In this document: piece after piece, positions 39,201 through 46,076 of the stretch
How positions within the stretch are numbered: the stretch's first letter is position 1
How the letters are laid out: every line of letters begins with the position of its first letter
DNA from: the human T2T-CHM13v2.0 reference genome, Homo sapiens
NCBI RefSeq assembly: GCF_009914755.1
Contig: NC_060925.1
Length of the DNA stretch: 64,000 bases
Strand: one strand, 5' to 3'
Translations under genes and position numbers: made by a program
Notes under the pieces: generated by a model
Database searches by the model: none
Seen by the model: the letters and a program-made list of their open reading frames with translations, nothing else
Told to the model about the DNA's origin: nothing

Positions 39201-39855
39201 TGAAATTCTGTATGTTGGTAAGTAAAATTTTAGATGGAAATAATCTAGTACATCACCTTTGCAGAAATTGCTATAGTCATTCTACTAACTGCAGTAGAGC
39301 TATACACAGTAGCACCTTCTAACTGAAATATTGGACAGAGAGTTTCCATCGTTGTAGTATTTTGTTTAATTATTATCCTTATAACAGGGATAATAGTTAC
39401 CAACAAAAAGGAAGCATGAAAGTTTTACTATCACCGAGTCTGCTAGGACTTTTTATTGGGTTTAGTGATACATCACACCCTTTAGCTCCTACAATATCAG
39501 CCATGGCCCATTTGTACAAAAAGACTAATTCTTGGGTCTGTCCTGAGCAATTTGCTCAGTTCAATAACGCTAAGGAAACTGCACTATAGTAGCAATGGTC
39601 CCCAACCTACTATTTTTAAATTGCACTGACATGGAATTGCACTGACATGAGAATATCCTCATGATGACTCTTGAATTGGAAAAACTGGCTATCAGCTTCC
39701 CAGTTTGCACAACTAATCAAGAAATAATGTGGGGTCACTGGCACAAATGATGAGGCATCTCTGGGAAGTTTAACTTCCTATCTGTCCAATCTCTTGCCCC
39801 ACATCATCTGGGGACATCCCTAACCTAGGTCCTTTTTAGAAAGTGCACTATCTTG

Positions 39856-40226
39856 GAAGCCAGAGCTGCAGCCAGGTCAAGCTGGACTGGTGATATGGAG
39901 CCCCCGTACCAGTAAACCCACAAGCAGGTCCATGAGATCCAGTCTCACATGGGATGCCTGGAGATGGCAGACAAGCAGTTTTCACACTTAGTAGAAAATG
40001 AAATCCAAGCAAGCACAGACCAGATATTCAGGGGTCTAGAACATCTGGAGATTTTGTCTAGCAAGGAGCCCCCTAACAAAAGGCAGAATGCCAAACTTCA
40101 GGTTGACCGGTTAAAGTATGATGTTCAGCACCTGCAGACTGCTCTCAGAAACTTCCAGCATTGACACTATACAAGGGAGCAGCAGGAGAGACAGCAAGAA
40201 GAGCTTTTCAAAACTTCACCACTAAC
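39856..40226 (+). pseudogene. GOSR2: Processed GOSR2 fragment (5' UTR plus codons 1-112)
   Basis: ATG at 39895: [22 protein letters not shown]...LVENEIQAS...[35 protein letters not shown]...FTTN. Intronless, with stops and a frameshift. Confidence 0.93.
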
Positions 40227-40679
40227 AATTCTCAATTGCAATCCTCTGACAATGTTGAAGATTCGTATCTGTTTAAATTGCCGGCATTGCCGGGCGCAGT
40301 GGCTCACGCTTGTAATCCCAGCACTTTGGGAGGCCGAGGCGGGCAGATCACCTGAGGTCAGGAGTTCGAGACCAGCCTGACCAACATGGAGAAACCCCAT
40401 CTCTACTAAAAATACAAAATTAGCTGGGCATGGTGATGCATGCCTGTAATCCCAGCTACTCGGGAGGCTGAGGCAGGAGAATCGCTTGAACCTGGGAGGC
40501 AGAGGTTGCGGTGAGCCGAGATTGCGCCATTGCACTCCAGCCTGGGCAACAAGAGCATAACTCCATCTCAGAAAAAAAAAAAAAATTGCCAGGATTAAAA
40601 TATCTAGACATTGGAACAACACAAATCCCATTACAACAATTGAAAATATCCTCATGATGACTCTTAAATTGGAAAAACT
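40227..40679 (+). pseudogene. Spliced sense LRRC37 leucine-rich-repeat exons, interrupted by an Alu (about 40289-40585)
   Basis: Translates with small indels to [20 protein letters not shown][Alu][27 protein letters not shown], similar to LRRC37[50 protein letters not shown] (recalled). Confidence 0.85.
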
Positions 40680-41139
40680 AGCTATCAGCTTCCCAGTTTG
40701 CACAATTAATCAAGAAATAATGTGGGGTCACTGGCACAAATGATGAGGCATCTCTAGGAAGTTTAACTTCCTATCTGTCCAATCTCTTGAACAGAAATGC
40801 CAGTTAGTTACTTCGTTTTGTTTGTTTGTTTGTTTTTTGAGACAGAGTCTCACTCTGCTGCCCAGGCTGGAGTGCAGTGGCACGATCTCGGCTCACTGCA
40901 ACCTCTGCCTCCCAGGTTCCAGCAATTCACCTGCCTCAGCCTCCCGAGTAGCTAGGATTACAGGTGCCCACATCTACACCTGGCTAATTTTTGTAGTATT
41001 AGTAGAGATGGGGTTTCACCATGTTGGCCAGGCTAGTCTTGAACTCCTGACCTCAGGTGATCTACCTGCCTTGGCCTCCCAACATACTGGGATTACTGTC
41101 ATGAGCCACTGTGCCCAGCCAGTTAATTACTTTGAATGT

Positions 41140-44100: not shown

Positions 44101-44994
44101 GAGGACTGGATCTCTTCAAGGTCTCTGGATTTTGAGTTTCGGGCTCTAGGTGAAATTGAAAAAGTCCAACTTGCTCAGGGGGCCCTGGAGGCTCGTCTGA
44201 GTTCACCTGGAGTTCTGGGGACAGGGTGCCTGGATACAGTATATCCATACTTCCATCTAAATATCCTGCAAAGTTTGTTTCTGACGCTGAGGTTTTTATA
44301 CAAATCGGTGTGGAGTTCCAGCCACAACCTTAGCAAGCCTCCGATGCTAAGCTAGACCTTTCTTCAGGTTCTTGGGCCAAACAATAAGCTTCGTTGCTTG
44401 TGAATTCTATCCAGAGGTAGAACAAGTATTTCATATGCCTGATGATCTGCAGCCTGATCTAGATTTGCAGTTTTAACCTTACTTTTGAGGCAAAGAGTCC
44501 GAGCTAGGGCCTGGTTCTGATCCCAGTCCAGCATTGGGACCACCTCTGGGAGCCTTTCTTGCCGAGTCAGCTTGTCATTCAGATCCTGGTGTGCAGCAAC
44601 GAACTGCTCTGGCCACGGGGGCAGCTCTCCAGCTGTATCCGTGTCCAGGAATGGAACCAAAGTCTTGGTGAAAGTCTCAGTCGATTCCTGAGGCAGAGCT
44701 GACATCTGGGAGGAAGCAGAGGACCCCAGGTATTCAAAGCCCCCGGGTCTGCGTGGTGGGGGGAGGGTAAGCGCATGGGGGCGATTCGGGTGGGAGATCA
44801 GAGGAGCGGGAAAACAAGGGCTCATCGGCCACAGGGCATCGGAGATCAGCTGCAGCGGGTCCTGGACCCACTCCAGAGGCTGAGCCGCCTGGACGAGTAG
44901 CCACAATAGTTGCTACGTGAGGAGGGGGTCGTGGGAGCCAGAGGCACAGCCGGGACGTGACATGCGCTGGCGCCGCGCACAGAGCTGGAGCCAT
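41140..44994 (-). pseudogene. LRRC37A12P: LRRC37-family exon-1 pseudogene (probably LRRC37A12P)
   Basis: ATG at 44994 (MAPALCAA...), then WLLVQAAQPLEWVQDPLQL...LVPFLDTD.AGELP, then P/E/Q-rich repeats (EVEPSPVLQE, [12 protein letters not shown]). Many frameshifts and stops. The pseudogene number is from recall. Confidence 0.88.
41598..42014 (-). mobile_element. 417-bp solo LTR inserted in the LRRC37 exon-1 copy
   Basis: TG...CA termini, 5-bp TSD TTAGT (41593-41597 / 42015-42019), AATAAA on the minus strand near 41652. The LRRC37 reading NSTLT|NTTVKNVDMEL resumes across it. Confidence 0.85.
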
Positions 44995-45330
44995 TCTGGC
45001 AGCCCCAAGACGCTAGCGCCCCTAGCAACCGTGGGCACCGCCCCCTCCTTTATAAGCAAATTTTATTAGGTGAGGTCTAGATCCGCTCCGCGTCACCAGG
45101 GCGATCTCATCCCACAATCCTGCCCAAGCCTCCCTTCTCGCCCCGCCCCGCAGGAACACTCCTCCCCTCCCCTAAGCGAGGAAGGATTTGGGCAGCAGAC
45201 CTTGGTGGTCCCAAGACTCCAGCAGCCTATTGTGGTGGTGGTGGTGGTGGTGGTGGTGGTGGTGGTGTAGGGTTGGGTGGGGTGGGGTGCAGGCGCGGCA
45301 GAGCTTCCCAAGGAAGTCACGGGACCTCAC
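44995..45330 (-). promoter_or_regulatory. Copied LRRC37-type proximal promoter (TATA, X-box-like motif, GC box)
   Basis: TATAAA on the minus strand at 45049-45054, about 55 nt upstream of the ATG. GTTGCTAGG (RFX-like) near 45021-45029, GGGGCGGGG near 45141-45149, locally CpG-rich. Confidence 0.55.
45232..45268. repeat. (GGT)n microsatellite
   Basis: About 12 GTG/GGT units. It explains the poly-V, poly-W, poly-H and poly-T ORF stretches. Confidence 0.95.
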
Positions 45331-46076
45331 CTCGGGATATTCAGAGGTGCTAGTCCAGTTCTGGCAGCCTGAATTCTTTCTCCTCCAAGCTGAAATCCGA
45401 GAGATAATCTTCCTCCTCTTGGCCAATACGGCTTCCAGGGAAAACAACTGACCTGCAAAATCTGCGCCAGTTAGGGTGGCAGGCAGAACACACATTATGG
45501 TCATTTATTCCAAAATGTTGCCATTTTCGCTAAACTTTCGATACCCTTTGTTGCATGTTTGATAATTAATTCACCGCCCTATTAGGTACGGGCTGCCAGG
45601 CAACAAGCGAGGACTGCAAATTTTCTGTAGGACAGGTTTTGGGGTGTGGGCAATTCAGTCTGAGAGAGAAGGCCTTAATGCGAGTGAACAGCCCTTTGCA
45701 CTAGCCTGGGAGGAGGCCAAAATGTCATCCTGCCTTGACTTAACACAGCCTTTACCCTAGAAGCTACAGCGCCACTCTCAGAGGTCTACCCTATGTGCAC
45801 ACATGGAGAAGACGCTTAGGTTGTTAAAGTCAGCATGTTAAATAATTTCCTGAAATGCGACTATAACGAGAACTCAGCTGGCTTCACCCACAGCCATTCT
45901 TACCTATTTTATTACTCATTGTCTGGCACAATCACAAAGTGCAGGTGATACTGACACCTACTTTTTAGGGTTTTTTGATGATTTAATTTGATAATGAATG
46001 TACACTGCTTTGCAAACAGTGAGCTTTCAATAAAAGGTACCTATTGTAATTCTCAAAAAAAAAGTGCACTATCTTG

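What the first reader, a model, noticed from the sequence alone, without database searches (positions are those of the whole stretch)
39840..46076. One 6.2-kb retro-insertion fossilises a GOSR2 -> LRRC37 read-through transcript
Seen in the sequence: a perfect 16-bp TSD (AAAGTGCACTATCTTG, 39840-39855 / 46061-46076) brackets, on the + strand, (i) the GOSR2 5' UTR and intronless codons 1-112, (ii) directly abutting intronless sense LRRC37 LRR exons, and (iii) about 5 kb of ANTISENSE LRRC37 exon 1 plus upstream DNA. The unit ends in AATAAA 20 nt before a poly(A). From recall: GOSR2 codon 112 (c.336) is the end of exon 4, and GOSR2 lies next to LRRC37 core-duplicon copies on 17q21. Inference: the junction is a true splice, and L1 copied a multi-gene chimeric mRNA that ran from GOSR2 through one LRRC37 copy and into an oppositely oriented second copy. 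That would record an ancestral arrangement and transcript of an unstable locus. Ordinary twin-priming inversion does not explain it, because the spliced 5' part is sense and the poly(A)-bearing part is the antisense one. The two pseudogenes should be treated as one event.
Basis: partly seen in the sequence, partly recalled or inferred. Interest (0 to 1): 0.88.

Follow-up and report, generated by a model that had tools for sequence, protein, structure and literature searches.

The report
Retrocopy of a GOSR2–LRRC37 fusion transcript
A dead, L1-inserted copy of an old spliced RNA that joined GOSR2 to LRRC37 sequence in both orientations; a second copy on chromosome 18 shows the RNA was real, and it records a chromosome-17 layout that humans no longer have.

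Summary
A perfect 16-bp target-site duplication (39840-39855 / 46061-46076) brackets one polyadenylated insert, and two paralogues of the surrounding repeat run through with one copy of it. All five internal exon joins fall on canonical splice sites in chr17 DNA. The parts are GOSR2 exons 1-4, two sense LRRC37 LRR exons, and a 5.3-kb terminal exon entered at a ...ttccag|AG acceptor on the strand antisense to LRRC37 intron 1.

New here:
- An independent copy on chr18 has its own ~23-nt duplication and a start 24 nt further 5'. It shares both chimeric joins and the polyadenylation signal. K2P to the chr1 copy is 0.12 and even along the length. The chimera was therefore an RNA, not an insertion artefact.
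- The last 122 nt, which carry AATAAA, match no chr17 LRRC37 copy.
- Nothing in T2T-CHM13 near GOSR2 has the geometry this RNA needs.
- A 162-nt patch copied later from the insert lies 43 bp upstream.

Open: whether the source was read-through from true GOSR2 or a duplication-born fusion locus. This is a new member of a known kind (PIPSL-type retrocopy of an intergenic transcript), non-functional, and not described in the LRRC37 papers I searched.

The parts
39840..39855 (+). 5' copy of the 16-bp target-site duplication
   Evidence: 2 matches, 0 expected; single copy in chrX and chr8 paralogues of the host repeat
39856..39923 (+). GOSR2 exon 1: 39 nt of 5' UTR, ATG at 39895
   Evidence: aligns to chr17:47784585-667, which is followed by gtgagg; the chr18 copy starts 24 nt further 5'
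39924..39988 (+). GOSR2 exon 2
   Evidence: chr17:47790966-, preceded by ttcctttgatag
39989..40097 (+). GOSR2 exon 3
   Evidence: chr17:47792544-652, 93.6% identity, flanked by cag| and |gtaagt
40098..40226 (+). GOSR2 exon 4, ends at codon 112
   Evidence: chr17:47793512-644, 87%, flanked by ccag| and |gtaagc; N112 boundary in isoforms
40227..40605 (+). LRRC37 LRR exon X in sense (40227-40288 plus 40597-40605), split by a later Alu
   Evidence: chr17:47401826-897, a 72-nt exon flanked by ttcag| and |gtaagt; uninterrupted in the chr18 copy
40289..40596 (+). secondary Alu insertion with its own 14-nt TSD (40275-288 / 40583-596)
   Evidence: absent from the chr18 copy; sequence read
40606..40679 (+). 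LRRC37 LRR exon Y, the next exon, in sense
   Evidence: chr17:47402457-531 flanked by cttcag| and |gtaagt
40680..45935 (+). long unspliced terminal exon: antisense of LRRC37 intron 1 (part), exon 1, promoter and about 0.9 kb of upstream DNA
   Evidence: acceptor ...ttccag| precedes the homologous point in 7 of 7 chr17 copies inspected; collinear with chr17:44776535-44780825 at 87-92%; PF15779 on the minus strand
40816..41120 (-). secondary Alu, 14-nt TSD (40802-815 / 41121-134)
   Evidence: absent from the chr18 copy
41598..42014 (+). secondary solo LTR, 4-5-bp TSD
   Evidence: chr17:44.78 Mb and 29.21 Mb copies are contiguous across the site; many LTR paralogues, some paired about 7 kb apart
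43561..43869 (-). secondary Alu, 15-nt TSD GCTTCACTCCAACTT
   Evidence: absent from chr18 and chr17 copies
45936..46054 (+). non-LRRC37 3' tail carrying AATAAA (46029-46034)
   Evidence: only three places in the genome: chr1, chr18 and chr11:67140980-67141097 at 87%; chr17 copies diverge exactly here, with no GT/AG
46055..46060 (+). poly(A) remnant
46061..46076 (+). 3' copy of the TSD
39635..39796 (+). later 162-nt patch in the upstream flank: a 15-nt local tandem duplication plus a 147-nt copy of 40643-40789 that spans the exon Y / antisense-exon join
   Evidence: family D11 (149 nt, 97%); the host-repeat paralogues are contiguous across it; it shares 4 chr1-specific changes with its template

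Best explanation
The 6.2 kb between the two 16-mers is one L1-mediated processed pseudogene. It is a copy of one capped, spliced, polyadenylated RNA.

That RNA started at the GOSR2 promoter and used GOSR2 exons 1-4. It then spliced to two consecutive sense LRR exons of an LRRC37 copy. From the second of these it spliced to an acceptor on the opposite strand of an inverted LRRC37 5' region. It ran unspliced through intron 1, exon 1, the promoter and about 0.9 kb of upstream DNA. It ended at an AATAAA in a short non-LRRC37 segment.

Cis-splicing of such an RNA needs a chr17 layout of GOSR2 5' half, then a sense LRRC37 fragment, then an inverted LRRC37 5' end, then a foreign tail. That layout is no longer in the human genome.

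The same RNA was inserted at least twice, on chr1 and chr18. The K2P distance of 0.12 suggests roughly 40-60 million years ago (inferred, not tested). Three Alus, a solo LTR and a 162-nt templated patch came later. The copy is full of stops and has no evident function.

Shown: retro-insertion as one unit, splice-site joins, a second independent copy. Inferred: cis-splicing on an inverted duplicon layout, the age, loss of the source.
For: One event:
- TSD with 0 matches expected by chance.
- A single TSD copy in two paralogues of the host repeat.
- AATAAA and an A-run at the 3' end only.

Splice sites:
- All five internal joins coincide with canonical AG/GT sites in chr17 genomic DNA.
- The acceptor was intact in 7 of 7 copies inspected, out of 10 found.

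The chr18 copy (31916991..31913721, minus strand):
- 87-88% identical across both chimeric joins.
- Same AATAAA tail.
- Its own ~23-nt TSD.
- 24 extra nt that match GOSR2 exon 1.
- Lacks all three Alus.

Age and identity:
- K2P between chr1 and chr18 is 0.122 over 3,059 nt. It ranges 0.089-0.138 in each of five segments, so all parts are of one age.
- GOSR2 is named. LRRC37 is named and the RefSeq row.

Source layout today:
- No X/Y exons within 124 kb downstream of GOSR2.
- Of 7 X-Y blocks and 10 acceptor blocks genome-wide, only one pair lies on the same strand within 100 kb. It is at the LRRC37B locus, 32.98 to 33.04 Mb. So the geometry does occur, but not at GOSR2.
Against: No source locus with all parts exists in T2T-CHM13, so the cis-splicing layout is inferred, not seen.

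The join at 45935|45936 is not a splice site and is unexplained beyond 'duplication or deletion breakpoint in the source'.

The chr18 copy lacks about 1.6-2 kb of exon-1 repeats present on chr1. Either the source varied or chr18 suffered a deletion.

No RNA data and no primate orthologues were available. The age rests on a substitution rate taken from general knowledge.
Confidence: 0.88

Rival explanations
1. Source variant A: the RNA was read-through from the genuine GOSR2 gene into neighbouring LRRC37 copies, one in sense and a further one inverted, in an ancestral 17q21 arrangement.
For: GOSR2 and an LRRC37 copy are co-oriented and 84 kb apart today (chr17:47793644 versus 47877774-47883176).

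Giannuzzi 2013 (PMC3530683, passages read) places one of two ancestral Euarchontoglires LRRC37 loci (A5) at hg18 chr17:42.4 Mb. It also places four orangutan copies at that location. That this is the GOSR2-side copy is my inference from position, not a liftover.

Both retrocopies start in the true exon-1 5' UTR.

The retrocopies share none of the 10 private changes of the 29.2-Mb GOSR2 duplicate.
Against: Leaving GOSR2 at exon 4 of six or more is unusual for read-through chimeras, which as a rule leave from the penultimate exon (recalled).

No X/Y exons, inverted acceptor or chr11-like tail lie within 124 kb downstream today.
Confidence: 0.45
2. Source variant B: a segmental duplication put a GOSR2 5' half, broken in intron 4, next to an LRRC37 mosaic. 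This created a fusion gene whose only possible splice out of GOSR2 was from exon 4. That locus has since decayed or been lost.
For: chr17:29214919-29223441 is an inverted, intron-containing copy of GOSR2 47787245-47794916 at about 88% identity. It ends 1.27 kb into intron 4 and abuts LRRC37 5' pieces in both orientations.

Those LRRC37 pieces are of the same sub-type as the retrocopy (85-90% identity; 89% for 45648-45934, the best of any chr17 copy).

Its divergence matches the retrocopies' age.

A foreign 122-nt tail is typical of duplication mosaics.
Against: The 29.2-Mb relic lacks exon 1, the promoter and exon 2. It also lacks X/Y and the acceptor.

Its LRRC37 pieces are ordered differently from the retrocopy.

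Site patterns over 242 nt do not link it to the retrocopies: 3 sites shared with them against 6 that unite only the two retrocopies, and most of these are CpG sites.
Confidence: 0.4
3. Reverse-transcriptase template switching joined two or three separate RNAs during one insertion (U6/L1-type chimeric retrogene), or L1 twin priming inverted part of one RNA.
For: The parts have opposite sense relative to LRRC37. The join at 45935|45936 is not a splice site.
Against: The sense/antisense join lies exactly on a donor and an acceptor.

The identical joins, including 45935|45936, recur in an independent chr18 insertion with a different TSD and 5' end.

Twin priming would require an antisense copy of a spliced mRNA as template.
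Confidence: 0.03
4. Two or more unrelated pseudogenes (a GOSR2 retrocopy and LRRC37A12P) landed side by side, or the block is a DNA-level segmental duplication from chr17.
For: RefSeq annotates only LRRC37A12P (42392-44453, minus strand) and no GOSR2 pseudogene.
Against: There is no internal TSD or poly(A). Introns are absent. One TSD surrounds everything. The same composite lies on chr18. Divergence is uniform along the unit.
Confidence: 0.02

Closest known systems
PIPSL-type 'co-retroposed' chimeric retrocopy: L1 copy of an intergenically spliced PIP5K1A-PSMD4 transcript. Source: Ohshima 2013 review, PMC3747384, passages read.
   Same: Parts of different genes joined at exon boundaries at the RNA level, then reverse-transcribed and inserted as one unit with one poly(A) and one TSD.
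   Different: Here there are three or four parts. The last is a 5-kb unspliced exon antisense to one of the partner genes. The copy is dead, not a new gene. Two independent insertions survive. The parental layout is gone from the genome.
LRRC37E, the chr10 LRRC37 retrocopy. Source: Giannuzzi 2013, PMC3530683, passages read.
   Same: A processed copy of an LRRC37-containing RNA outside chr17. It contains the same two LRR exons joined without an intron.
   Different: The chr10 copy is a normal sense LRRC37 mRNA copy, with exon 1 and the LRR exons on the same strand. The chr1 and chr18 copies are GOSR2-led and hold exon 1 in antisense. The main text of that paper lists only the chr10 retrocopy.
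LRRC37B2 / SMURF2 fusion gene made by segmental duplication. Source: Giannuzzi 2013, figure legend read.
   Same: The LRRC37 core duplicon fused with exons of an unrelated chr17 gene and transcribed as a chimera.
   Different: That fusion survives as genomic DNA with introns. The GOSR2 fusion survives only as retrocopies and, perhaps, as the scrambled relic at chr17:29.2 Mb.

Membership tests
L1-mediated processed pseudogene | Introns removed exactly at splice sites of the parent | tested here: met
   Five joins fall on AG/GT sites of chr17 genomic copies.
L1-mediated processed pseudogene | 3' poly(A) shortly after a polyadenylation signal | tested here: met
   AATAAA at 46029-34 and an A-run from 46055. 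The same signal ends the chr18 copy.
L1-mediated processed pseudogene | Target-site duplication flanking the whole insert; empty site has one copy | tested here: met
   A 16-bp perfect repeat with 0 expected by chance. The chrX and chr8 paralogues of the host repeat hold one copy. The orthologous empty site in other primates was not testable here.
L1-mediated processed pseudogene | Insertion at an L1 endonuclease-like T-rich/A site | tested here: inconclusive
   The target reads ...CCTTTTTAG|AAAGTGC, which on the bottom strand is ...CACTTT|CTAAAAA. This is only a loose fit to the recalled TTTT/A preference.
Retrocopy of a transcription-induced chimera (PIPSL type) | Parts of two or more genes joined at their own exon boundaries | tested here: met
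   GOSR2 exon-4 donor to LRRC37 LRR-exon acceptor.
Retrocopy of a transcription-induced chimera (PIPSL type) | Parent genes adjacent and co-oriented so that one pre-mRNA can span them | tested here: inconclusive
   GOSR2 and one LRRC37 copy are co-oriented 84 kb apart. That copy lacks the X/Y exons, and no inverted acceptor follows. The needed layout must be ancestral or lost.
Retrocopy of a transcription-induced chimera (PIPSL type) | The chimeric RNA is observed as a transcript | not testable with these tools
   No RNA data were available. None of 14 GOSR2 isoforms inspected (of 120 listed) carries LRR sequence after residue 112. The two independent retrocopies are indirect evidence of the RNA.
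Template-switch chimeric retrogene (U6/L1 type) | Join made by the reverse transcriptase at arbitrary points, unique to each insertion | tested here: not met
   The joins are on splice sites and are identical in two independent insertions.
L1 twin-priming inversion | The inverted 5' segment and the direct 3' segment derive from adjacent parts of one RNA, with the breakpoint unique to the event | tested here: not met
   The 'inverted' part would have to be the antisense of a spliced mRNA. The same breakpoint occurs on chr18.

The most novel reading that the evidence does not exclude
The chr1/chr18 pair is the only surviving full record of a germline-expressed GOSR2-LRRC37 fusion transcription unit of early anthropoids, born with the first LRRC37 core-duplicon rearrangements.

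Its terminal exon shows that the strand antisense to the LRRC37 promoter and exon 1 carries an old splice acceptor in intron 1. That acceptor is intact in all 7 present copies inspected. It may still be used wherever an inverted copy follows a sense copy, for example downstream of LRRC37B at 33.04 Mb. That would give an unrecognised antisense unit over LRRC37 promoters.
Probability: 0.3. Interest if true: 0.6.

Novelty: new member of a known kind. Interest (0 to 1): 0.45.

Why it matters
The annotation shows only a minus-strand 'LRRC37A12P' of 2 kb. In fact that is the tail of a 6.2-kb plus-strand retro-unit led by an unannotated GOSR2 pseudogene.

With its chr18 twin it gives a dated, intron-free snapshot of a chimeric transcript from one of the most unstable parts of chromosome 17. 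It therefore records how GOSR2 and LRRC37 duplicons once lay relative to each other. That layout cannot be read from the present genome.

It offers concrete markers to look for in primate T2T assemblies and long-read RNA: the exon 4 to LRR exon join, the LRR exon to antisense acceptor join, and the chr11-like tail. It has no sign of present function.

Tried and rejected
- Origin of the 122-nt tail: a search with 1.7 kb around the chr11 match was swamped by Alu hits and says nothing. My impression that the tail is a MIR element in reverse orientation is recall only; no tool here names repeats.
Only 8 kb and 2.7 kb more were obtained. The 44.78-Mb and 36.86-Mb copies were therefore not examined beyond what searches show.
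- Pfam on GOSR2: nothing found for the 82-aa GOSR2 fragment. The name rests.
- Quartet site patterns for GOSR2 exons 3-4 (true gene, 29.2-Mb duplicate, chr1, chr18) could not tell the two source variants apart. There was no outgroup and most informative sites are CpG.
- Literature: searches for LRRC37+GOSR2, for LRRC37+core duplicon+retrotransposition, and for LRRC37A12P/A7P/A17P/'GOSR2 pseudogene' found no description of this chimera. Apart from the three papers read, I saw search listings only. The supplements of PMC3530683 (Table S1, Supplemental Note) were not opened and may list the chr1 and chr18 copies.
- Rejected readings: twin priming, template switching, side-by-side pseudogenes and DNA-level duplication (see rivals).
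Full report
**What is there**

The 16-mer AAAGTGCACTATCTTG occurs exactly twice in the window, at 39840-39855 and 46061-46076. Shuffles gave 0 matches by chance.

The DNA outside the two copies belongs to one interspersed repeat. 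Its paralogues on chrX and chr8 align to the left flank (to 39634, and 39799-39857) and to the right flank (46061-46594). They hold the 16-mer once. This is as close to an empty site as the human genome alone can give.

The insert ends in AATAAA (46029-46034), then 20 nt, then an A-run. So one polyadenylated unit of 6.2 kb was inserted by target-primed reverse transcription.

**Anatomy of the 5' part**

Positions 39856-40226 match four exons on chr17:
- 47784585-667, followed by gtgagg
- 47790966-
- 47792544-652
- 47793512-644, followed by gtaagc

An 82-residue stop-free stretch finds proteins named Golgi SNAP receptor complex member 2 at 84-88% identity. In those proteins residue N112 is the point where alternative isoforms diverge (14 of the 120 listed were inspected). 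The copy is dead: it has a stop at codon 7 and a 4-nt deletion in exon 4.

**The two LRR exons**

Directly after 40226 come two consecutive LRRC37 LRR exons in sense: X (40227-40288 plus 40597-40605) and Y (40606-40679). In LRRC37 genomic copies they are a 72-nt and a 75-nt exon about 560 bp apart. Each is flanked by ...cag| and |gtaagt.

**The antisense part**

From 40680 the sequence matches LRRC37 5' regions on the opposite strand.

In all 7 chr17 copies I inspected, out of 10 that the genome holds, the base matching 40680 is preceded by cacctgctttctcatttccag. That is a textbook acceptor on the antisense strand.

Using the ordinary chr10 LRRC37 retrocopy as a guide to exon 2, this acceptor lies about 130 nt from exon 2, inside intron 1.

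From there the retrocopy is collinear and unspliced with genomic LRRC37. It covers the rest of intron 1, the exon-1 repeats, the start codon region and about 0.9 kb upstream, as far as 45935. Three of four minus-strand ORFs tested hit Pfam PF15779. The best present paralogue is chr17:44776535-44780825 at 87-92% identity.

**The tail**

The last 122 nt (45936-46057), which carry the AATAAA, match no chr17 LRRC37 copy. The chr17 copies diverge exactly at 45935, without GT or AG.

The genome holds this stretch only on chr1, on chr18 and at chr11:67140980-67141097 (87%). On chr11 the element seems to continue further upstream. To me it looks like a MIR in reverse orientation, but that is recall and was not tested. 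I read 45935|45936 as a duplication or deletion breakpoint in the source locus.

**The decisive new evidence: a twin on chr18**

chr18:31916991..31913721 (minus strand) carries the same composite. It matches at 88% over the GOSR2/X join, 87% over the Y/antisense join and 86% over the 3' 2 kb including the tail.

It is an independent insertion:
- It has its own ~23-nt target-site duplication.
- It begins 24 nt further 5', and those bases match GOSR2 exon 1.
- It lacks all three Alus of the chr1 copy.
- It lacks about 1.6-2 kb of exon-1 repeats that chr1 and chr17 copies share.

So neither copy is a DNA copy of the other. The chimeric joins were present in the RNA.

K2P between the two copies is 0.122 over 3,059 aligned nt. 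It ranges 0.089-0.138 in each of five segments, so the GOSR2, LRR and antisense parts are of one age. At 1-1.5 x 10^-9 substitutions per site per year (general knowledge) this is roughly 40-60 million years. Orthologues could not be checked.

**Later additions to the chr1 copy**

- An Alu at 40289-40596.
- An Alu at 40816-41120.
- An Alu at 43561-43869.
- A solo LTR at 41598-42014.

Each has its own short duplication, and each is absent from the chr18 or chr17 homologues.

**Where did the RNA come from?**

Cis-splicing needs, on one strand and in this order: GOSR2 exons 1-4, an X-Y block in sense, and an inverted LRRC37 5' end.

In T2T-CHM13 the 124 kb downstream of GOSR2 hold only one LRRC37 5' end (47877774-47883176). 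It is in sense, with no X-Y exons.

Genome-wide there are 7 X-Y blocks and 10 acceptor blocks. Only one pair lies on the same strand within 100 kb: 32.98 to 33.04 Mb at the LRRC37B locus. The geometry is therefore real for this duplicon family, but it is not at GOSR2 today. No chr17 locus has the chr11-like tail.

Two source models remain.

(A) Read-through from true GOSR2 in an ancestral layout.
- Giannuzzi et al. 2013 (PMC3530683, passages only) place an ancestral LRRC37 locus, and four orangutan copies, at hg18 chr17:42.4 Mb.
- I infer, without a liftover, that this is the GOSR2-side copy.

(B) A fusion locus made by segmental duplication.
- chr17:29214919-29223441 is an inverted, intron-bearing copy of GOSR2 from intron 1 to 1.27 kb into intron 4. 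It is about 88% identical and abuts LRRC37 5' pieces of the same sub-type in both orientations.
- A breakpoint in intron 4 would explain why the chimera leaves GOSR2 at exon 4.
- Against it, this relic lacks exons 1 and 2, the X-Y exons and the acceptor.
- Site patterns over exons 3-4 do not tie it to the retrocopies.

I cannot choose between the two models.

**The upstream patch**

Positions 39635-39796, 43 bp upstream of the TSD, are an insertion into the host repeat. The repeat's paralogues are contiguous across it.

It consists of a 15-nt tandem copy of the preceding bases followed by a 147-nt copy of 40643-40789. It therefore contains the Y/antisense splice join (family D11, 97%).

Compared with its template:
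- It shares 4 chr1-specific changes with the template.
- It differs from the template at 5 sites: 2 private to each copy and 1 ambiguous.

So it was copied from the resident retrocopy well after insertion, unless gene conversion has homogenised the two. The junctions have 1-2 nt of microhomology. The template sits between two inverted Alus. I read the patch as a templated insertion during break repair. That is inference only.

**Comparison and novelty**

The kind is known. PIPSL arose when L1 copied an intergenically spliced PIP5K1A-PSMD4 transcript (PMC3747384, passages).

This case differs in four ways:
- It has a sense-plus-antisense use of one duplicon family.
- It has a 5-kb unspliced terminal exon.
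- Two independent copies survive.
- The parental layout has been lost.

The main text of the two LRRC37 family papers mentions only the chr10 retrocopy. The terms GOSR2, chr18 and 'chromosome 18' do not occur in PMC3530683, and GOSR2, 'chromosome 18' and antisense do not occur in PMC3371713 (supplements not seen). Three library searches found no description of this chimera.

**Verdict**

This is a new member of a known kind, non-functional, of moderate interest as a molecular fossil and as an annotation correction.

Noticed in passing
window 39635-39796: A 162-nt patch in the upstream flank: a 15-nt local tandem duplication plus a 147-nt copy of 40643-40789, spanning the spliced join. It is 97% identical to its template and shares 4 chr1-specific changes with it. 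It looks like a later templated break-repair insertion.
   Followed up: partly
window 40289-40582 and 40816-41120: Two Alus in inverted orientation, 85-86% complementary (pairs I4/I5). They flank a spacer of about 230 nt that is the template of the upstream patch. Inverted Alu pairs are recalled to be break-prone.
   Followed up: no
L025/L002: chr18:31913721-31916991 (minus strand): A second, independent retrocopy of the same chimeric RNA, with its own ~23-nt TSD and a longer GOSR2 5' UTR. It has no Alu or LTR insertions and lacks about 1.6-2 kb of exon-1 repeats.
   Followed up: yes
L029/L030/L046: chr17:29205151-29223441: A scrambled duplication block. It holds GOSR2 intron 1 to intron 4 (exon 2 deleted), an LRRC37 exon-1 fragment in sense, then a tandem array of more than ten matches to a piece of about 90-230 nt of the LRRC37 5' coding region (29206657-29210817), then an upstream-region piece in antisense.
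   Followed up: partly
L032: chr11:67140980-67141097: The only other genomic match (87%) to the 122-nt tail that supplies the polyadenylation signal of both retrocopies. Its relation to the lost source locus is unexplained.
   Followed up: partly
chr17:32980688-32981611 (+) and 33040621-33041213 (+): At the LRRC37B locus a sense X-Y block is followed 60 kb downstream, on the same strand, by an inverted LRRC37 5' end with the intron-1 acceptor intact. This is a present-day place where the Y-to-antisense splice could occur.
   Followed up: no
window 42392-44453: RefSeq's LRRC37A12P row covers only about 1.2 kb, in two blocks on the minus strand. The GOSR2-derived 371 nt and the rest of the unit are unannotated.
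   Followed up: yes
window 41598-42014: A solo LTR of about 417 bp inserted into the retrocopy. Genomic paralogues are 70-80% identical, and some are paired about 7 kb apart. No tool named the family.
   Followed up: no
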